The translations under genes and the position numbers were made by a program. From Escherichia coli (lineage in GTDB: Bacteria; Pseudomonadota; Gammaproteobacteria; Enterobacterales; Enterobacteriaceae), in the NCBI RefSeq assembly GCF_030384885.1, contig NZ_CP128613.1: a DNA stretch of 64,000 nt. One strand, written 5' to 3'. Shown piece by piece: positions 17,425 through 58,400 of this stretch (the stretch's first letter is position 1; the number at the start of each line of letters is the position of its first letter). The notes under the pieces are model-generated. The model ran no database searches and was not told the origin of the DNA. It saw nothing but the letters and a program-made list of their open reading frames with translations.

Positions 17425-18299
17425 GAACACACCTTTTATCTTTTATCGCTGTTCAGTATGAGTGATTACCTGTGGATTCCTGAGCACACATAAGGGGTAA
17501 CCATAAACATTAGCGATGCCATACGTATAACATCCCACATCACTATCAAGAAGATTATCTTTACCTCTGATGCTCGCTCAAAAACAGTTACGCTAAATAC
17601 CTTAAAAAGGTAATCACAAGTCAAACTCAGGAGATAATCACGCAAGAATGCAATATTAAAATTCAGATACTCATTTTTGGTAATAAAGAAGTAGTTGGAC
17701 TATTTCGATATTTATAATTTCCCACTACGTATTGACGCCCATTCATGAGTAAAGGCGCATTATATGAATTTAACAATCCAGATCAACTGAAAATACCTCA
17801 ACCTCATAAACACATAGCGTCAACATTCAATGACATAATGAGTAAAGATGTTGGTTATGCATACACGTCATTACTCTATGCCAATCCCTTAACAACCTGC
17901 TTTTTAAGACTGAATCCATTCAGCAATAGATAGCCAACATTATAACAATGACAATAAAAACAATATTTAAAACAATCAATAAAATATCAGACACAAACAA
18001 TTAAACCTTAAACAACAAACAGTTACATTGATTTTAGTTGATTTGCGCTATGCGTTCCCCATGAATAAAGCGTCATTTCAAATTAGCACCAATATTTACA
18101 TTAAATAAGACTAAGCTTATTGAACATTCACAACAGTCCAAACGTAGTGTTTGGGCTTCAATAGTTCTTTTCTTTTTTATTATCTGTTGCCTGGCAATCA
18201 TCAATCGATACTAAGGGCTTAACTGTACAGATATAACGTATCAAGAGGTAAGAGAAACCACGCCATATGCAGACATGGCGCGGTTTTATGCAATAACAA

Positions 18300-42399: not shown

Positions 42400-43542
42400 A
42401 TGACAAATAAACACCCATCATTGTTTTCTCCTTTTATGCTGACAGAAAAAATAAAGCTACGTAATCGTATCGTTATGGCCCCTATGACGACCTGGTCAGC
42501 GAATCCTGATGGAACCATCTCTGAGCAAGAACTCGAATTTTATAAACGCCGCTCACAAAATGTTGGTTTAGTAATAACAGGATGTACCTATGTCACGCCA
42601 AGCGGCATTGGGTTTACTCATGAATTTGCCGCATATGACGACCGTTTCATTAACAGCCTTGAAAAGTTAGCAGCGGCAGCCCAAAGTGGGGGTGCTCCGG
42701 CTATTTTGCAGATTTTCCACGCCGGTAATAAAGCCATCCCGGAGCTTGTACCAAATAACGATGTTATTAGTGCCAGCGCATCAAGCGTAAAATCTGGTGA
42801 CTTTATGAAGAGAGTGGTACAAAGCAGGGAAATGACTGAAAACGAAATTCAGGAAACCATTAGAGCATTCGGAGATGTCACAAAAAGGGCGATTAAAGCA
42901 GGTTTTGATGGCATTGAACTTCATGGTGCGCACGGATTCCTTCTACAGAATTTCTTCTCCCCTCTATTTAACCAGCGTAATGACCGATGGGGAGGAGATC
43001 TCGAAGGACGTATGCGCTTCCCGCTGGCCGTATTACAGGAAGTAAAAAATGTAGTCTATGAATATGCGACAAAGCCCTTTGCCATCGGTTACAGAATATC
43101 TCCTGAAGAATCTGCAACAGGGGGGCTGCGGATAGAGGATACTTATAAACTCCTTGATCGGCTCATTTCATCCGGTATTTCGTATATACATACCTCGCTG
43201 GTCAGTATTAACGATAGCTACCCTGTTGAGTCGCCAAATGGCCCCCGAACTATTGAATTGATTTTAAATCATATTGCAGGCAGAGTGCCGGTAATCGCTG
43301 CAGGTAAAATACGCACACCGTCTCAGGCTCAAGAAGCAATTTCCACTGGCCTGCCACTTGTTGCGATCGGTAAAGGGCTGGTGATAAATCCAGAATGGGT
43401 GACTTTAGCTGAATCAGGTAGAGGCCATGAAATTCAAACAACCCTTAATCCACAACTTGTTCCTGAATTAACCATTCCGGATAAACTATGGGATCAAATT
43501 CAGACATCGAAAGGAACTGGCTGGTTTCCGTTAATGGATTAA
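42400..43542 (+). CDS. NADH:flavin oxidoreductase (Old Yellow Enzyme family)
   Basis: 380 aa; the OYE-typical N-terminus (…LRNRIVMAPMTT…) and ELHGAHGFLLQNF active-site region. Confidence 0.8.
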   Translation: MTNKHPSLFSPFMLTEKIKLRNRIVMAPMTTWSANPDGTISEQELEFYKRRSQNVGLVITGCTYVTPSGIGFTHEFAAYDDRFINSLEKLAAAAQSGGAPAILQIFHAGNKAIPELVPNNDVISASASSVKSGDFMKRVVQSREMTENEIQETIRAFGDVTKRAIKAGFDGIELHGAHGFLLQNFFSPLFNQRNDRWGGDLEGRMRFPLAVLQEVKNVVYEYATKPFAIGYRISPEESATGGLRIEDTYKLLDRLISSGISYIHTSLVSINDSYPVESPNGPRTIELILNHIAGRVPVIAAGKIRTPSQAQEAISTGLPLVAIGKGLVINPEWVTLAESGRGHEIQTTLNPQLVPELTIPDKLWDQIQTSKGTGWFPLMD

Positions 43543-44014
43543 ATATCTATTACTCTCCCGAGAGTAAAACTATCAAACCAATGAGTAACCGATACAGCCT
43601 CGCAAATTCTTTCAGATAATTAACCCGTCACTGCGGCACGTTCTCTCATAAGGCGTGCCTGCTGTGTAATCCAGTATGTATCCGGCATACTTGACGGTTT
43701 AATAGAACTCAATTCCTTTCCCAGGTTACCAACAACGATATCTTGTATAACACCCCAGGAGATACGACATTATGATGAGATGAGGTATGCTCCTCAGCGC
43801 CAATCAACGCCAGGGCTGGGCCAGTTTTGAGATCAGACTCATTCCCGGACTGACTTCAGGCGACATATATCAATGACGTTGGGGCAATAAAAGATAGCCG
43901 ATGTAATACATCTATTCAAATTTGTGATACATGTCAAAAAATTGGTTGACCAAACTCGTTATTTATATAAGGGCACTTACGAAGTGCACTCTTTTTTAAA
44001 GCGAGGAAGTACCA

Positions 44015-44116
44015 ATGAAAGAGAATAAAGTACAGCAAATCAGTCATAAACTGATTAATATCGTTGTTTTTGTCGCAATTGTAGAATACGCCTATTTATT
44101 TCTCCATTTCTATTAA
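44015..44116 (+). CDS. ykgR: Small membrane protein (33 aa)
   Basis: MKENKVQQISHKLINIVVFVAIVEYAYLFLHFY: an RBS-like GAGGAAG upstream, a single TM helix, and the ykgR position next to rpmE2. Below the ORF-track size cut-off, read manually. Confidence 0.55.
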   Translation: MKENKVQQISHKLINIVVFVAIVEYAYLFLHFY

Positions 44117-44452
44117 TAACGGCAATAAACTGTTCACTTCAGTGATATTTAAAATATGCATCCTCTCCCTTTTTTTTAAGTAATTATTATATTCGTGGGG
44201 GAGGAATACACGCTGTCAGGTAATCAATCAAACTGCGATAAATCATCGGCCAGTAAAGTGGAGATAGCCTCCATTCTCGAAAAATTCATACTCTCAGCGA
44301 AACCATCATCAATCACTCATCCAGGCGTTTATGGGAGCGTCGCCAATGGCTGCTAACAATGCCAGACTTCCCCGTTGCCGAAATTCCACATACCACAAAT
44401 GGTCACAGGAATTGGGTGTTGAAATGATTCGGATGAGCATGTATCTTTACGG

Positions 44453-44468
44453 TTATGTTATAACATAA
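44453..44468. promoter_or_regulatory. Zur-box-like perfect palindrome TTATGTTATAACATAA upstream of rpmE2
   Basis: Exact 16-bp palindrome ~10 bp before the rpmE2 start; the L31/L36 paralogue operon is a classic Zur target. Confidence 0.5.
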
Positions 44469-44480
44469 CAGGTAAAAATG

Positions 44481-44744
44481 ATGAAACCCAATATCCATCC
44501 TGAGTATCGTACTGTGGTGTTCCATGACACCAGTGTTGATGAGTACTTTAAAATCGGCTCGACTATCAAAACAGACCGTGAGATTGAGCTGGATGGCGTA
44601 ACGTATCCGTACGTGACAATTGATGTCTCTTCGAAATCGCACCCGTTCTATACAGGGAAGCTGAGAACAGTGGCATCAGAAGGAAATGTTGCACGGTTCA
44701 CCCAACGTTTTGGTCGTTTTGTTAGCACGAAAAAGGGGGCGTGA
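44481..44744 (+). CDS. rpmE2: Ribosomal protein L31 paralogue (type B, zinc-independent)
   Basis: 87 aa ([17 protein letters not shown]…) lacking the CxxC zinc ribbon of canonical L31. Confidence 0.9.
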
Positions 44745-44884
44745 TGAAAGTCCTTAACTCTCTGCGTACCGCAAAAGAACGCCATCCAGACTGTCAGATT
44801 GTGAAGCGAAAAGGACGGCTGTATGTGATTTGTAAATCTAATCCACGTTTTAAGGCCGTTCAGGGACGTAAGAAAAAGCGTTGA
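44744..44884 (+). CDS. rpmJ2: Ribosomal protein L36 paralogue
   Basis: 46-aa basic ORF ([46 protein letters not shown]) whose ATG overlaps the rpmE2 stop (TGATG). Read manually; too small for the track. Confidence 0.85.
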
Positions 44885-44938
44885 TTCATAATTCGCCGGA
44901 TTAACGATATTTGTCTGATTAATAATCAGACCGGATTA

Positions 44939-44972
44939 ATGTTGGTGTATTGATTACACCAACATTAATTTT
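44939..44972 (+). terminator. Rho-independent terminator of rpmE2-rpmJ2
   Basis: 11-bp perfect stem ATGTTGGTGTA / TACACCAACAT with a 5-nt loop, followed by TAATTTT. Confidence 0.7.
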
Positions 44973-45206
44973 CCTGGAAATATATTCTTTAAGTTCATTT
45001 AAAGCCAACTGCCTGACGTTTCTCTCTGAATATTCCATTATATTCATGTTGATTTATTGACCAACTTCTCCCCTGTATGCTGGTATCAACTCTCTTTTAG
45101 ACTGAACAAGCCACTCCGCCCCCTCCCTTTGCGGAGCAGCCTGCATTTACACTCAAACTGTTAAGATGATAAATGTGGTAAATCTGTTGGTACTAACATA
45201 AAACGT

Positions 45207-45437
45207 TTACGCCACAGGAACAGCCTGATCCACCGGTAACCCCATCGCCGACGTTCGAGTGCCAGTTAGAGTAACGCGCACAGATGACTGCACGCAGTGC
45301 CCTGTCAAAGAGGCCATCGTTCCTGTGACAGCTGGCAGCCTTCGTTTAACTTCACTTAATTTGGCTCTTGGGGGGCTTACCGAACAGATGACGTAGTCAC
45401 ACCTATTCAATTTTTCACCACTTATTGGAGTAAACAC
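45207..45437 (-). CDS. Small hypothetical ORF (possibly ykgL-like)
   Basis: 76-aa ORF in the rpmJ2-ecpR intergenic region; no motif support. Confidence 0.25.
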   Translation of the reverse strand: MFTPISGEKLNRCDYVICSVSPPRAKLSEVKRRLPAVTGTMASLTGHCVQSSVRVTLTGTRTSAMGLPVDQAVPVA

Positions 45438-54912: not shown

Positions 54913-55282
54913 ATAAGAATCCGTTTCTAATTCAAAGCATTACCACATCAACACTGCGCTCACACGTCCCACCACATCAAAACATGTAAAGCCTTGCAAG
55001 CCATTGTGAGGCCTTATGTGTCTCAGTTTTGTCCCACCTTGTATTACGACTTGCATAACCAATGAAGATAAACGTGACGACAAACGACGCAGCAGTCTTC
55101 TTTTCTTTCACACTTTCCCCACTCAGCATGCATACCTTCTACTATAACTGTAGTGAATGTCTGTTATGAGCGAGGAGCGGACTATCTTTCTGTGCTAAGC
55201 ACAGAAGTTTAAATTAATAAATAGAGATTAAGATGTTTATTGGTTACATTGATATTTATAATTTGATTGCCTTGAAATTCCT

Positions 55283-55322
55283 AAGCCGAATTCATGACGT
55301 CTTCATCACATGAATTCGGCTT
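55283..55322. terminator. Perfect 14-bp-stem hairpin (AAGCCGAATTCATG … CATGAATTCGGCTT) 3' of the 447-aa cargo gene
   Basis: Exact reverse-complement arms around a 12-nt loop, ~30 bp beyond the gene's stop. Confidence 0.55.
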
Positions 55323-55351
55323 ATGCATAATACTAAGTTGGTTTTATTAAG

Positions 55352-56695
55352 TCATTTCTTTGCCGCGCTTTTATTGCACTTCTTACAGCCTTCAATCAAT
55401 TTTTCAGTTATTATATAATAATAAGGAATGTAAATGTTTAACCCGCAAGTTTTAATCGAATCGAAAGCAAGAACTTTCACAATGGATTCTTCTCCATCTT
55501 TCTCCATTAGCAATATATCACTTAAAGGCAAATCATTAGGATTGTAAATCCTCACATCGCCAGGCTGTCTTTCATAGGCTTCGATGTCATCACCTGGTTG
55601 GCCATAGGCTAAATGAGTGGCTTTAATCCAGTTTATTGGTTCAGCATTTTGACACCAGGAGATTATTTTTTCTAATTTTTCAGGTGTGTAAGCTTTTACA
55701 TAATCTCCATGTTTTTCACATCTACCTAGTTCTGAAAAATGGCCCAGGGTGTATTCATAAGAATAATCACCAGCAGTCAATGGTAGTCTAAAGTATTGCT
55801 GAGGCAATGCCTTCTGGACTTTGGTTTTACTCAGCAAATTAAAGGTGATATCATAAAGTTGATATAGACAAACACCCTCTCGATCTGGATATCCATAAGG
55901 CTTGATGTCAGAAAGCATCTCAATATCAGAATTATAAACACTTGCATAATCATCACTTCCAAACATGAAAAAACCTTTTGATAGAATGAATATTGCATTA
56001 GGAAGAACGTTTTTTTCAAAATTCTGCGAGTGAGTTTTTATTTCTTGTACTATGTCCATCCAATCCATATCAGTATCATAGGCGAAGATAATTCCAAAAC
56101 CATTAGTCTGAATTCTCTCCTCTGAATGTATAAATATGTTCTGATTTATACCATGTTTCTTTAGTTTTTTGAATGAGCGGATATTTTCGAAAGCACTTTT
56201 CAGTTCTTTTTTTGTTAGTTTTGACTTAACCTGAATCACACCATAGCAGTACTCCACAGGTAAAACCTCAAAAATTTCCTGTCGCTGCATAAGCGAAAAT
56301 GAATTAAAAGCATCATAAAAAAGAATGTCGATTTCATTACTGAGATGTCCTGAGGTTGACGCTACACGGACACTTGATTTTGAGATGGCATAGCTTTGCG
56401 GTAAGAGTTTATTTTCATTGAAAAAGCATCTTAAGAGTTCCTCTCTGACAGTACCAACATCTCTTGGATGCTTAATATCTTTCGATATTTCAAAATCTTG
56501 AAGCATTTTCCTCTGTAAGTGAATGAACTCCCTTTCAAGACCATAAAATTCTTTATCTTTAGATCTCAGTTTGCTTGCACGAGAAACTTGATCGGATATC
56601 CATTCCTTTGTGCGAGACTCTCTCTCAGCAAAATCATCACGTTGTTTTTTTACAGCACCGGTCAAGCGTTTTCTTGTGTTTTCATTATCGGACAT
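55352..56695 (-). CDS. Hypothetical 447-aa protein of unknown function (AT-rich cargo gene; possible PD-(D/E)xK-like nuclease motif)
   Basis: Long uninterrupted ORF in visibly AT-rich DNA, K/E-rich N-terminus, a segment (…EIDILFYDAF…EYCYGVIQVKSK…) reminiscent of a restriction-endonuclease-like fold; stands alone between a terminator and the repeat/invertase region. Confidence 0.7.
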   Translation of the reverse strand: MSDNENTRKRLTGAVKKQRDDFAERESRTKEWISDQVSRASKLRSKDKEFYGLEREFIHLQRKMLQDFEISKDIKHPRDVGTVREELLRCFFNENKLLPQSYAISKSSVRVASTSGHLSNEIDILFYDAFNSFSLMQRQEIFEVLPVEYCYGVIQVKSKLTKKELKSAFENIRSFKKLKKHGINQNIFIHSEERIQTNGFGIIFAYDTDMDWMDIVQEIKTHSQNFEKNVLPNAIFILSKGFFMFGSDDYASVYNSDIEMLSDIKPYGYPDREGVCLYQLYDITFNLLSKTKVQKALPQQYFRLPLTAGDYSYEYTLGHFSELGRCEKHGDYVKAYTPEKLEKIISWCQNAEPINWIKATHLAYGQPGDDIEAYERQPGDVRIYNPNDLPLSDILLMEKDGEESIVKVLAFDSIKTCGLNIYIPYYYIITEKLIEGCKKCNKSAAKK

Positions 56696-57095
56696 AAATT
56701 AACCTTAAGTTGATAAGTTTTGTGGTGAATTTATAAAGCCTGAGGGATAAACATTTATAGTCTATAAGTTACTATTTATTTGAGATAGTAAGCCAATTTT
56801 ATTAGATGAAGAAACGTTCATAACCTCCTCAACTACGTTTCAATCGGCAACATCGGAGAAGTACACTTTGACAATATATAGCATATTGAAGCAGCTGTAA
56901 CTTAGAGCGCGTACACTCAAGATTTCCCGCTGCGGTGATGGCGGACGACTGCGTTTGATAACTCATTTCCCTCACCAACTATCGGACCTGTTCCTGATTG
57001 ATTATCACATTATAATGTGAGCAATGTCCGCTCCTAGCACATAGCAGTTCTAGAGACAATGGCGTAAAGTCATGGAGAATCGGTGGGAGGATATT

Positions 57096-57227
57096 CAGTT
57101 TCATTCATGCCGAAATACGGTAAAATCTATAACAGATAGAAATCATTCAATATTCGCACTATCAGAAGCTGGCCAGCCAACCGCGCACGATTTTGCATAC
57201 GACATGCTACGGTTTCATTTATCTCCG
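57096..57227 (+). repeat. Copy B of the ~130-bp imperfect direct repeat
   Basis: See copy A (52924..53053). Confidence 0.5.
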
Positions 57228-57814
57228 ACCGGAAACTTCTTATACAGTGTCGATACACCAACATCATAGATGATCTCCACCTTCTGGCGAGGAACGCCTG
57301 ATGCAATTAATCGCCCGGCCTGCGCCCTTTGTTCTGGTGTAAGTTTGGGACGACGTCCACCAATTCGTCCCTGTGCGCGAGCAACTTCCAGTCCAGCTTT
57401 TGTTCGTTCAACAATCAGTTCTCGTTCCATTTCAGCCAGGGCACCCATCACATGAAAGAAAAAACGCCCCATCGGTGTGCTGGTATCAATAGCATCCGTC
57501 AGGCTGCGAAAATTAACGCCACGTTCGCGCAACTCCTCAACCAGAATGACCAGATGGACAAGCGTGCCGGGACCGGGTTTATTCAGCGCTTCAATCAGGC
57601 GATCGCGCTGGTCAAAGCAGTCATCTCCCACCACATAAGCTGTGATGGACGGGCGGAAAGTGACTTTTCCCAGATCTTCGGTATAGGGCTTGTCGCGGTT
57701 CGGGTATTCATGTGTTTCCACACGGCGACCGGTTCCCGCACTTTCTTCTTCAACCTTAAACGGCACACCTCGAAATGACGCATCCTGAAGCCTGTCTTTC
57801 CACGTCATATACAC
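57215..57814 (-). pseudogene. Pin/Hin/Gin-family serine invertase C-terminal fragment fused to an unrelated N-terminus
   Basis: The C-terminal ~115 aa (…ELRERGVNFRSLTDAIDTSTPMGRFFFHVMGALAEMERELIVERT…RRPKLTPEQ…STLYKK) match the invertase core and HTH; the N-terminal ~85 aa show no resolvase catalytic-Ser region. Confidence 0.6.
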
Positions 57815-57821
57815 TCCGAAA

Positions 57822-57850
57822 ATAAAAAAGCCACCTATTAGAAGGTGGCC
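57822..57850 (-). terminator. Rho-independent terminator of the lipoprotein-like gene
   Basis: Stem GCCACCT / AGGTGGC followed on the minus strand by a T-tract (TTTTTATTTT). Confidence 0.6.
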
Positions 57851-57869
57851 TTGTAATGAATTTTATTAA

Positions 57870-58400
57870 TTAGCGAGTCAGAAACAACGAATCTTTATAC
57901 TTTTGCTGTTGTTCATTTAAATACTTAGCTGTTTCATCGCTGGCAAATGGAAATATTACCGTATTTTTAGGCATGGTAATTTCTTTTTTGTCCAGCGTCA
58001 GAGTAAACATAGGAACATACTGAGCAGAGTAACGCACCGCAGAAACGAGCTCTAGTTTAGACTCTTCAATAACACTTAAATTATCCAGGCTAACTTTCTC
58101 TTCATCTTTTTTCTTTGACGCATTTAAAGTTTTTATTACTTTATTTAATTTCTCCTGAAAATCCTCCTTAAAGTTTTCAGGATTGCCGTCGACAACAAGA
58201 ATCTGTTCACCCTGATTATCTGGAAAAATAATCTTTGCACTTATCAATTTATTTTCTTTATAAACATCACCAAGTTTTATGGCTCCTCCAGATAACTGAA
58301 TAATATGTTCATCTTTAAAGGAGATGTTGCCAGAGATTATGAGAGATGAAAAAATAGCCGCTGCTCCAAGAATTACACTTGCTGTGATATAGCCTTTCAT
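57870..58400 (-). CDS. Hypothetical signal-peptide/lipoprotein-like protein (AT-rich cargo)
   Basis: 176-aa ORF with an N-terminal hydrophobic segment (MKGYITASVILGAAAIFSSLIISG), Lys/Glu-rich, in visibly AT-rich DNA, with its own terminator. Confidence 0.6.
   Translation of the reverse strand: MKGYITASVILGAAAIFSSLIISGNISFKDEHIIQLSGGAIKLGDVYKENKLISAKIIFPDNQGEQILVVDGNPENFKEDFQEKLNKVIKTLNASKKKDEEKVSLDNLSVIEESKLELVSAVRYSAQYVPMFTLTLDKKEITMPKNTVIFPFASDETAKYLNEQQQKYKDSLFLTR

What the first reader, a model, noticed from the sequence alone, without database searches (positions are those of the whole stretch)
44015..44468. Small-protein gene ykgR and a perfect Zur-box-like palindrome ahead of the rpmE2-rpmJ2 operon
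A 33-codon single-TM ORF with an RBS lies in otherwise non-coding DNA that the ORF track cannot see. The 16-bp palindrome TTATGTTATAACATAA sits ~10 bp before the L31-paralogue start, consistent with zinc-dependent (Zur) repression of a zinc-sparing ribosomal protein switch.
Basis: partly seen in the sequence, partly recalled or inferred. Interest (0 to 1): 0.35.

Follow-up and report, generated by a model that had tools for sequence, protein, structure and literature searches.

The report
Known ykgR gene and Zur operator

Summary
Both observations are real, and both are textbook E. coli features. The window is E. coli: a 1,001-base stretch spanning the three genes is 100% identical to strain 2013C-4282. 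RefSeq annotates ykgR (44015-44116), ykgM (type B L31, 44481-44744) and ykgO (type B L36, 44744-44884).

**The palindrome.**
- It is a perfect 18-mer, GTTATGTTATAACATAAC (44452-44469), the longest palindrome in the window.
- It starts 4 nt after a TTGAAA-17-TATCTT promoter and ends 11 nt before the conserved ykgM ATG.
- It fits the structure-based Zur skeleton 18/18.
- It is the top hit in the window (24.5 bits) for a matrix built only from the znuA/C, zinT and pliG operators.
- It is strongly conserved at the same position in front of ykgM in 80 species, while the flanks are not.
- Published work shows this operator is among the tightest-binding E. coli Zur sites, with 560-fold repression.

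**YkgR.**
- It hits the NCBIfam YkgR equivalog (78 bits against a cutoff of 40).
- It has one hydrophobic segment and a Shine-Dalgarno sequence, and dN/dS is about 0.2.
- It was found only in Escherichia.
- Published work shows it binds the signal recognition particle and is cleaved by RseP.

Novelty: already known. Interest: low. One minor lead: a published RNA-seq table shows ykgR about 3.5-fold induced by calprotectin, and a CRP-like site sits upstream of it.

The parts
43923..43938 (+). CRP-like core TGTGATACATGTCAAA upstream of ykgR. This is a putative, untested activator site for a class II promoter.
   Evidence: One mismatch to TGTGA-N6-TCACA. There are 4 such hits in the window, so it is not significant on its own. 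The sequence is invariant in four Escherichia sequences.
43960..43965 (+). -10-like TATTTA for ykgR. It would place the transcription start near 43972, 41.5 bp from the centre of the CRP-like site. Inferred.
   Evidence: Read directly from the sequence. Conserved in Escherichia. No start-site data were available.
43973..43987 (+). Small hairpin GCACTT-ACG-AAGTGC followed by a T-run, just upstream of the ykgR ribosome-binding site. Role uncertain.
   Evidence: Terminator-like hit. Its fold is no better than shuffles, z = -0.4. E. albertii shows one A-T to G-C compensatory change.
44003..44006 (+). ykgR Shine-Dalgarno sequence (GAGG), 8 nt before the ATG.
   Evidence: Invariant in Escherichia.
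44015..44116 (+). ykgR, encoding a 33-aa single-pass small membrane protein.
   Evidence: ORF. RefSeq annotation. NCBIfam NF041474 at 78.1 bits. Hydropathy peak at residues 12-31. dN/dS 0.20-0.24 with length preserved across three Escherichia species. Literature on SRP binding and RseP cleavage.
44117..44418 (.). Fast-evolving non-coding spacer between ykgR and the ykgMO promoter.
   Evidence: The spacer accounts for most of the 27 differences from K-12 in a 621-base alignment in which ykgR and the roughly 110 bases before its start codon show none. A 91-bp indel separates it from E. albertii and another Escherichia species. No ORF is conserved. No Rfam family matches.
44419..44447 (+). ykgMO sigma-70 promoter: TTGAAA (-35), 17-bp spacer, TATCTT (-10).
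   Evidence: Consensus scan. The same hexamers are listed for ykgMO in the RpoD genomic SELEX study PMC3946193. The -35 TTG and the -10 TAnnnT are conserved in 80 species.
44452..44469 (.). Zur operator: perfect 18-bp palindrome GTTATGTTATAACATAAC (the 20-bp motif spans 44451-44470). It covers the predicted transcription start (about 44454) and abuts the -10 element and the ribosome-binding site.
   Evidence: motif tests. (conservation in 80 species). (identical to K-12). (published binding and repression).
44470..44472 (+). ykgM Shine-Dalgarno core (AGG), 8 nt before the ATG at 44481.
   Evidence: A purine-rich GAGG-like element lies at the same place in other species.
44481..44744 (+). ykgM (rpmE2), the type B, cysteine-less L31 paralogue, 87 aa.
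   Evidence: RefSeq. NF002462 at 122.9 bits and PF01197. All four Cys ligands of RpmE are replaced.
44744..44884 (+). ykgO (rpmJ2), the type B L36 paralogue, 46 aa. Its start overlaps the ykgM stop codon (TGATG).
   Evidence: RefSeq. NF002021 at 91 bits and PF00444. Two of the four zinc ligands of RpmJ are lost.
44913..44975 (.). Two adjacent strong hairpins (44913-44931 and 44933-44971) followed by TTTT. Likely terminator of ykgMO, shared with the convergent ykgL.
   Evidence: Inverted repeat of 15 nt at 100% complementarity. Fold of -32.2 kcal/mol, z = -5.4.

Best explanation
The region holds two separate, already described units.

(1) ykgR is an independently transcribed gene for a 33-residue single-pass inner-membrane protein. 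The polar, lysine-rich N-terminus is probably cytoplasmic and the hydrophobic C-terminal two-thirds form the membrane span. According to published work it is inserted post-translationally by SRP and is degraded by the intramembrane protease RseP. Its cellular role is unknown.

(2) About 360 bp downstream lies the ykgM-ykgO operon for the zinc-free paralogues of ribosomal proteins L31 and L36. It is driven by a sigma-70 promoter (TTGAAA-17-TATCTT). The transcription start of that promoter lies inside the 18-bp palindrome.

When zinc is sufficient, zinc-loaded Zur binds the palindrome. Published data for the znuABC operator show two dimers bound, and a footprint of about 30 bp is reported for the znuABC, L31p and zinT operators. 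Here such a footprint would cover the -10 element, the start site and the ribosome-binding site, and so exclude RNA polymerase.

When zinc is scarce, Zur loses zinc and releases the DNA, and the operon is induced several hundred-fold. YkgM and YkgO then replace zinc-binding L31 and L36 in ribosomes. YkgM also represses L31 synthesis through the rpmE 5'UTR.

Shown here: sequence identity, motif fit, promoter geometry, cross-species conservation, family membership and loss of cysteines. Taken from the literature: Zur binding, repression and the ribosomal switch. Inferred: the exact transcription start and steric occlusion in this strain.
For: - Locus identity: a 1,001-base stretch spanning ykgR-ykgM-ykgO is 100% identical to E. 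coli 2013C-4282. The same stretch is found in 5085 of 5426 complete E. coli genomes, with ykgR, ykgM and ykgO annotated in every listed record.
- Box identical to K-12.
- Motif tests: 18/18 fit to RNNNYRNNRYNNYRNNNY. One outer mismatch to TGWNAYRWTATAWYRTNWCA, against 0.2 hits at up to two mismatches expected by chance. The 7-1-7 core TGTTATA-N-TATAACA has one mismatch at 44456-44470, the best in the window.
- Independent matrix: a matrix built from the znuA/C, zinT and pliG operators scores the site 24.5 bits, rank 1 of the window. The maximum in shuffles averaged 11.1 and peaked at 18.9.
- Promoter: TTGAAA-17-TATCTT was found by scan and is listed for ykgMO in PMC3946193.
- Phylogenetic footprint: in 80 species (Enterobacterales, Vibrio, Pseudoalteromonas) box positions 1-14 carry 1.4-2.0 bits and most flanking positions carry less than 0.4 bits. 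The box usually ends 12-14 nt before the ATG (72 of 81 sequences). The -35 TTG and the -10 TAnnnT are conserved.
- Published data: Kd-app 0.025e-18 M^2 and 560-fold repression for the L31p operator, with the highest palindrome score of the four operators. Y. pestis footprint and primer extension on ykgM. About 850-fold induction of ykgM by calprotectin in E. coli Nissle. YkgM represses L31.
- Proteins: NF002462, NF002021 and NF041474 all score above their cutoffs. Cysteine ligands are lost.
- YkgR: hydropathy and dN/dS of about 0.2. SRP cross-link and western blot. RseP cleavage in vivo and in vitro.
Against: - Nothing contradicts the model.
- No transcription-start or binding data exist for this particular strain. 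The start site (about 44454) is predicted from the -10 element only.
- The classic 23-bp Panina consensus GAAATGTTATANTATAACATTTC is matched only in its core, with 6 of 22 mismatches, all in outer positions.
- The palindrome has even (9+9) symmetry, whereas the other three operators have 7-1-7 odd symmetry.
- Palindromy alone is not statistically unusual.
- The YkgR function is unknown. I could not read the papers reporting its translation from the chromosome (Hemm 2008 and 2010), so that point rests on my own knowledge. The expression I could read about was plasmid-borne.
Confidence: 0.96

Rival explanations
1. ykgR belongs to the same zinc-regulated unit as ykgMO. It would either be co-transcribed with the operon or controlled by Zur, so that the small membrane protein is part of the zinc-limitation response.
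For: The genes are adjacent on the same strand. In the published E. coli Nissle calprotectin RNA-seq table, ykgR rises by log2FC 1.8 with padj 3.6e-16.
Against: - The induction is about 3.5-fold, against about 850-fold for ykgM. Similar modest changes are seen for unrelated stress genes such as ymgA and ariR.
- ykgR has substantial expression while ykgM is repressed.
- No second Zur-like site lies near ykgR. The next best matrix hits are far away or are shifted copies of the same box.
- The ykgMO promoter and operator lie downstream of ykgR, so they cannot drive it.
- The 300-bp spacer evolves quickly and carries indels.
- ykgR is absent upstream of ykgM in all 77 non-Escherichia loci, whereas the Zur box is retained.
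Confidence: 0.05
2. The palindrome is a chance AT-rich palindrome, or the site of another Fur-family regulator such as Fur, rather than a Zur operator.
For: Perfect palindromes of 18 bp or more occur in 28% of shuffled windows. Fur and Zur boxes are both AT-rich inverted repeats.
Against: - The site has 9 of 19 mismatches to the Fur box.
- It carries the central TATA that PMC4219657 names as Zur-specific.
- It is the top hit for the independent Zur matrix.
- It is conserved in 80 species at a fixed distance from ykgM.
- Direct binding and repression data exist for the identical K-12 sequence.
Confidence: 0.01
3. The palindrome acts mainly at the RNA level, as a 5'UTR hairpin that controls ykgM translation or mRNA stability.
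For: The sequence could form a 7-bp stem with a 4-nt loop right next to the ribosome-binding site.
Against: - The predicted transcription start (about 44454) lies inside the left arm, so the transcript would lack a full stem.
- Across species, conservation is at the level of specific bases, with an invariant TTATA at box positions 8-11. There is no compensatory pairing, and the right arm drifts (ACAAAAC) without matching changes in the left arm.
Confidence: 0.02
4. The 33-codon ORF is a spurious reading frame that is not translated.
For: It is very short, and its function is unknown. Our Pfam copy has no model for it.
Against: - It matches a curated NCBIfam equivalog, and a Pfam YkgR family is listed in the precomputed hits.
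- The exact length, the start and stop codons and the Shine-Dalgarno sequence are kept in E. albertii and another Escherichia species, with dN/dS of about 0.2, while the adjacent spacer decays.
- The protein has been detected, cross-linked to SRP and shown to be cleaved by RseP.
Confidence: 0.02

Closest known systems
E. coli K-12 ykgMO (L31p/L36p) Zur operator (Panina 2003; Gilston et al. 2014, PMC4219657)
   Same: The 18-bp palindrome, the AGG ribosome-binding site, both promoter hexamers and the gene order are identical. This is the same locus in another strain.
   Different: Only neutral strain differences outside the box, for example C in place of T at 44450, two bases upstream of the palindrome, and about 6% divergence in the upstream spacer.
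Other E. coli Zur operators: znuA/znuCB, zinT, pliG
   Same: They share the purine-NNN-pyrimidine skeleton, the central TATA, the TGTTATA/TATAACA half-sites and a position overlapping a promoter.
   Different: Those sites have 7-1-7 odd symmetry and are imperfect palindromes, with 10-12 of 18 self-complementary positions. The ykgM site is a perfect 9+9 palindrome that contains two mirrored 7-1-7 registers, at 44451-44465 and 44456-44470. It is reported as one of the two tightest-binding operators.
Yersinia pestis ykgM-rpmJ2 Zur site (PMC2706843)
   Same: A Zur box close to the ykgM start that overlaps the -10 element. It is supported by footprinting, primer extension and a lacZ fusion.
   Different: The sequence differs (GATGTTACATTATAACATA) and the repression is weaker, 4.7-fold with lacZ.
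E. coli small membrane proteins such as YohP, AzuC and YshB (Hemm/Storz set)
   Same: YkgR is a member of this set. It has about 30 residues and one membrane span. It is described as stationary-phase induced, it is inserted by SRP, and it is an RseP substrate.
   Different: YkgR was detected only in Escherichia, and no partner or phenotype is known.

Membership tests
Gammaproteobacterial Zur operator (Zur box) | Fits the structure-based two-dimer skeleton RNNNYRNNRYNNYRNNNY with a central TATA | tested here: met
   18/18 at 44452-44469, and fully self-complementary. TATA lies at 44459-44462. The skeleton alone is common, with 221 hits in the window, so this test is necessary but not sufficient.
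Gammaproteobacterial Zur operator (Zur box) | Matches sequence models built from validated Zur sites | tested here: met
   One outer mismatch to TGWNAYRWTATAWYRTNWCA. Rank 1 of the window at 24.5 bits for a matrix built from znu, zinT and pliG only, against a shuffle maximum of 18.9. The 23-bp Panina consensus is matched in the core only, with 6 of 22 mismatches.
Gammaproteobacterial Zur operator (Zur box) | Overlaps the core promoter of a zinc-homeostasis or zinc-sparing gene | tested here: met
   The box starts 4 nt after the -10 element TATCTT (the promoter is also listed in PMC3946193). The downstream genes are cysteine-poor L31 and L36 paralogues. The start site itself is predicted, not measured.
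Gammaproteobacterial Zur operator (Zur box) | Conserved in front of orthologous genes while the flanks diverge | tested here: met
   In 80 species, box positions 1-14 carry 1.4-2.0 bits and most flanking positions carry less than 0.4 bits.
Gammaproteobacterial Zur operator (Zur box) | Binds zinc-loaded Zur and confers zinc- and Zur-dependent repression | not testable with these tools
   Published for the identical K-12 sequence: gel-shift Kd-app of 0.025e-18 M^2 and 560-fold repression. About 850-fold calprotectin induction in E. coli Nissle.
Type B (C-) ribosomal proteins L31 and L36 | Scores above the curated cutoff of the type B models | tested here: met
   NF002462 at 122.9 bits against 86. 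NF002021 at 91 bits against 70.
Type B (C-) ribosomal proteins L31 and L36 | Loss of the zinc-binding cysteine motif present in the C+ paralogue | tested here: met
   YkgM has no cysteine, and all four Cys of RpmE are replaced. YkgO keeps two of the four RpmJ ligand positions, with C11 changed to H and H33 changed to F.
YkgR small membrane protein (NCBIfam NF041474) | Full-length match to the equivalog model | tested here: met
   78.1 bits against a cutoff of 40, residues 1-33 aligned to model positions 1-33.
YkgR small membrane protein (NCBIfam NF041474) | Single hydrophobic membrane-spanning segment | tested here: met
   The Kyte-Doolittle 19-residue mean peaks at about 2.0 for residues 12-31. 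No dedicated membrane-span predictor was available.
YkgR small membrane protein (NCBIfam NF041474) | Evolves as a coding sequence | tested here: met
   dN/dS of 0.20-0.24, with the length and stop codon kept in three Escherichia species. Statistical power is low, with only 8-11 substitutions per pair.
YkgR small membrane protein (NCBIfam NF041474) | Translated from its chromosomal locus | not testable with these tools
   SPA-tag detection is reported in Hemm et al. 2008 and 2010. This is from my own knowledge, as the papers are not held. Plasmid-expressed protein was detected.

The most novel reading that the evidence does not exclude
ykgR is a small membrane-protein gene detected only in Escherichia, sitting next to the ancient, widely conserved Zur-controlled ykgMO operon. 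It may have been recruited into the zinc-limitation or stationary-phase response. It would be mildly co-induced when zinc is withheld (3.5-fold with calprotectin) and driven by a CRP-dependent class II promoter, making it a young gene with a role linked to metal starvation at the membrane.
Probability: 0.1. Interest if true: 0.35.

Novelty: already known. Interest (0 to 1): 0.06.

Why it matters
For discovery it matters little. The Zur-ykgMO switch is a model example of metal-sparing ribosome remodelling, and its promoter is already used as a calprotectin and zinc biosensor. YkgR is a catalogued small membrane protein. The check has two uses. It confirms that a sequence-only reader can correctly recognise a small-protein gene and a regulator site. 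It also gives a clean positive control: an independent matrix plus an 80-species footprint recover the operator without ambiguity. The only open biology is the function and regulation of YkgR.

Tried and rejected
- The repeat finder did not report the zero-spacer palindrome, so I enumerated palindromes with a script.
- Rfam gave no meaningful family in 43500-45300.
- That search returned 9 hits, all E. coli-derived fragments, adaptor chimeras or assembly noise. The one apparently divergent hit, P0009 at 66% identity, comes from an error-rich E. coli-like assembly in which ykgM is frameshifted. It is not a true distant homologue.
- The second Zur-pattern hit at 18224-18243 scores 18.0 bits. That is within the range of shuffled sequence, and it lies at the 3' end of betT. 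I rejected it as chance.
- The 53-codon and 45-codon ORFs in the spacer are not conserved. A 91-bp indel breaks the frame in sister species.
- The hairpin before ykgR is not more stable than shuffles, so I make no claim of an attenuator.
- A Fur box was rejected, with 9 of 19 mismatches.
- The Hemm 2008 and 2010 papers and the EcoSal review could not be read.

Full report
**Observation.** The sequence shows a 33-codon ORF at 44015-44116 (+). It encodes MKENKVQQISHKLINIVVFVAIVEYAYLFLHFY and is preceded by GAGG 8 nt upstream. The string TTATGTTATAACATAA is at 44453-44468. Enumerating all perfect palindromes shows that it is really an 18-mer, GTTATGTTATAACATAAC (44452-44469), the longest in the 64-kb window. 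A perfect palindrome of that length or more turns up in 28% of dinucleotide-preserving shuffles, so palindromy alone proves little.

**Identity of the locus.**
- A 1-kb query covering the three genes is 100% identical to E. coli strain 2013C-4282 and is found in 5085 of 5426 complete E. coli genomes. ykgR, ykgM and ykgO are annotated in every listed record.
- RefSeq places ykgR at 44015-44116, ykgM at 44481-44744 and ykgO at 44744-44884 in window coordinates. fdeC/eaeH-side genes lie upstream, and ykgL and the ecp operon lie downstream.
- K-12 has the same order.
- The start at the second ATG (44481) is the right one, because E. albertii and another Escherichia species lack the first ATG.

**The operator.**
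- Gilston et al. 2014 (PMC4219657) describe E. coli Zur sites in three ways. These are the skeleton RNNNYRNNRYNNYRNNNY, a central TATA contacted by Tyr45, and the IUPAC pattern TGWNAYRWTATAWYRTNWCA.
- The window site fits the skeleton 18/18. It fits the IUPAC pattern with one mismatch at the outermost base, against 0.2 hits at up to two mismatches expected by chance.
- For a test that does not use ykgM itself, I took the znuA/znuC, zinT and pliG operators from the K-12 genome and built a symmetrised weight matrix. The site at 44451-44470 is the best hit in the window at 24.5 bits. The training sites score 26-29 bits. In 20 shuffles the maximum score averaged 11.1 bits, with a highest value of 18.9 bits.
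- The 7-1-7 core TGTTATA-N-TATAACA is matched with one mismatch at 44456-44470, and in mirror image at 44451-44465. The outer bases of the older 23-bp consensus are not matched. The Fur box fits poorly, with 9 of 19 mismatches.

**Promoter geometry.**
- A sigma-70-like TTGAAA-17-TATCTT lies at 44419-44447. The same hexamers are listed for ykgMO in the RpoD genomic SELEX study PMC3946193.
- The box begins 4 nt after the -10 element. It therefore spans the expected start site (about 44454) and ends next to the AGG ribosome-binding site.
- Published work reports a footprint of about 30 bp on the znuABC, L31p and zinT operators, and the crystal structure shows two Zur dimers on the znuABC operator. 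A footprint of that size here would cover the -10 element through the ribosome-binding site. Repression by excluding RNA polymerase is therefore the inferred mechanism.

**Comparative evidence.**
- A scan of one genome per species found 313 loci encoding YkgM relatives, and I kept 80 of them.
- In every locus a closely related box sits just upstream of the gene, usually ending 12-14 nt before the ATG.
- Anchored on the box, positions 1-14 carry 1.4-2.0 bits of information and most flanking positions carry less than 0.4 bits. A -35 TTG and a -10 TAnnnT also stand out.
- Within E. coli the 50-bp promoter-operator segment is present once in 5059 genomes. A rare variant keeps the ATGTTATAAC core.

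**Published function.**
- The identical K-12 operator has an apparent affinity of 0.025e-18 M^2 and gives 560-fold repression, which places it, with zinT, among the tightest-binding of the four known sites. It also has the highest palindrome score.
- In Y. pestis, Zur footprints the ykgM box over the -10 element.
- Calprotectin induces ykgM about 850-fold in E. coli Nissle.
- YkgM also represses L31 synthesis through the rpmE leader.

**The proteins.** YkgM and YkgO score above the curated cutoffs of the type B L31 and L36 models and match Pfam L31 and L36. Aligned with K-12 RpmE and RpmJ, YkgM has lost all four cysteines and YkgO has lost two of the four zinc ligands. The ykgM stop and the ykgO start overlap (TGATG). 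Two strong hairpins followed by a T-run lie after ykgO.

**ykgR.**
- The protein matches NCBIfam equivalog NF041474 at 78.1 bits against a cutoff of 40.
- It has one hydrophobic stretch, residues 12-31.
- Between E. coli, E. albertii and a third Escherichia species the ORF keeps its exact length, with dN/dS of 0.20-0.24. Meanwhile the spacer downstream accumulates substitutions and a 91-bp indel.
- It is absent within 2.5 kb upstream of ykgM in all non-Escherichia loci.
- A search of 1.84 billion representative proteins found only E. coli-derived fragments. It was therefore detected only in Escherichia.
- The literature shows western detection, SRP cross-linking and cleavage by RseP in vivo and in vitro. 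Reviews call it stationary-phase induced.
- The original chromosomal tagging papers could not be read.

**Side observations.**
- The region upstream of ykgR is strongly conserved in Escherichia. It contains a CRP-like core (43923-43938) placed exactly 41.5 bp before a start site that a TATTTA -10 element would give. This is only a lead.
- ykgR rises 3.5-fold with calprotectin in a published table, but no Zur-like site is nearby. An indirect effect is more likely.

**Verdict.** Everything is already known and annotated. Interest is low.

Noticed in passing
window 43900-44014: The ykgR upstream region is almost invariant across Escherichia. It contains a CRP-like core TGTGATACATGTCAAA (43923-43938). 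The geometry fits a class II promoter, with a -10-like TATTTA at 43960-43965 and a predicted start near 43972. A small hairpin plus T-run (43973-43996) would lie at the 5' end of the mRNA. No literature on CRP control of ykgR was found among the papers held.
   Followed up: partly
window 44015-44116 (ykgR); PMC12279244 Table S1: In a published E. coli Nissle calprotectin RNA-seq table, ykgR is induced at log2FC 1.8 (padj 3.6e-16), alongside ykgM (9.7), ykgO (9.5) and ykgL (9.3). No Zur-like site lies near ykgR, so the effect may be indirect.
   Followed up: partly
window 44117-44418: The ykgR-ykgM spacer evolves fast, about 6% divergent from K-12, and carries a 91-bp indel relative to E. albertii and another Escherichia species. 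A long-range pairing, CCTCTCCC (44163-44170) with GGGGGAGG (44197-44204), is nevertheless kept in all four sequences (fold z = -2.2). Its function, if any, is unknown.
   Followed up: partly
window 44015-44116: YkgR was detected only in Escherichia. It has no homologue upstream of ykgM in 77 other species, and no true homologue among 1.84 billion representative proteins.
   Followed up: yes
window 18224-18243: TGTACAGATATAACGTATCA is the second-best Zur-matrix hit at 18.0 bits. It lies just past the 3' end of betT and about 800 bp upstream of the next gene. The score is within the range of shuffled sequence, so it is probably chance.
   Followed up: partly
window 57005-57020: A perfect 16-bp palindrome TCACATTATAATGTGA, containing TATAAT, lies in an island region between a DUF6602 gene and the pinE recombinase gene. 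It could be an operator or a recombination-related site.
   Followed up: no
window 44919-45146 (-): ykgL, convergent with ykgO, is annotated as a pseudogene with an internal stop in the strain that is 100% identical over the 43900-44900 query. In published unstranded counts it appears co-induced with ykgMO, probably through read-through.
   Followed up: no
window about 55000-58000: Beyond about 55 kb the window is no longer colinear with strain 2013C-4282, which has proA and proB there. Instead it matches a DUF6602/pinE island found intact in only 3 complete E. coli genomes.
   Followed up: partly
L087 613-630 (E. coli OkiPb01713): A rare natural variant of the operator, ACTATGTTATAACGTAAC, has changed outer bases and an A-to-G change at box position 14. 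It could serve as a natural affinity variant.
   Followed up: no
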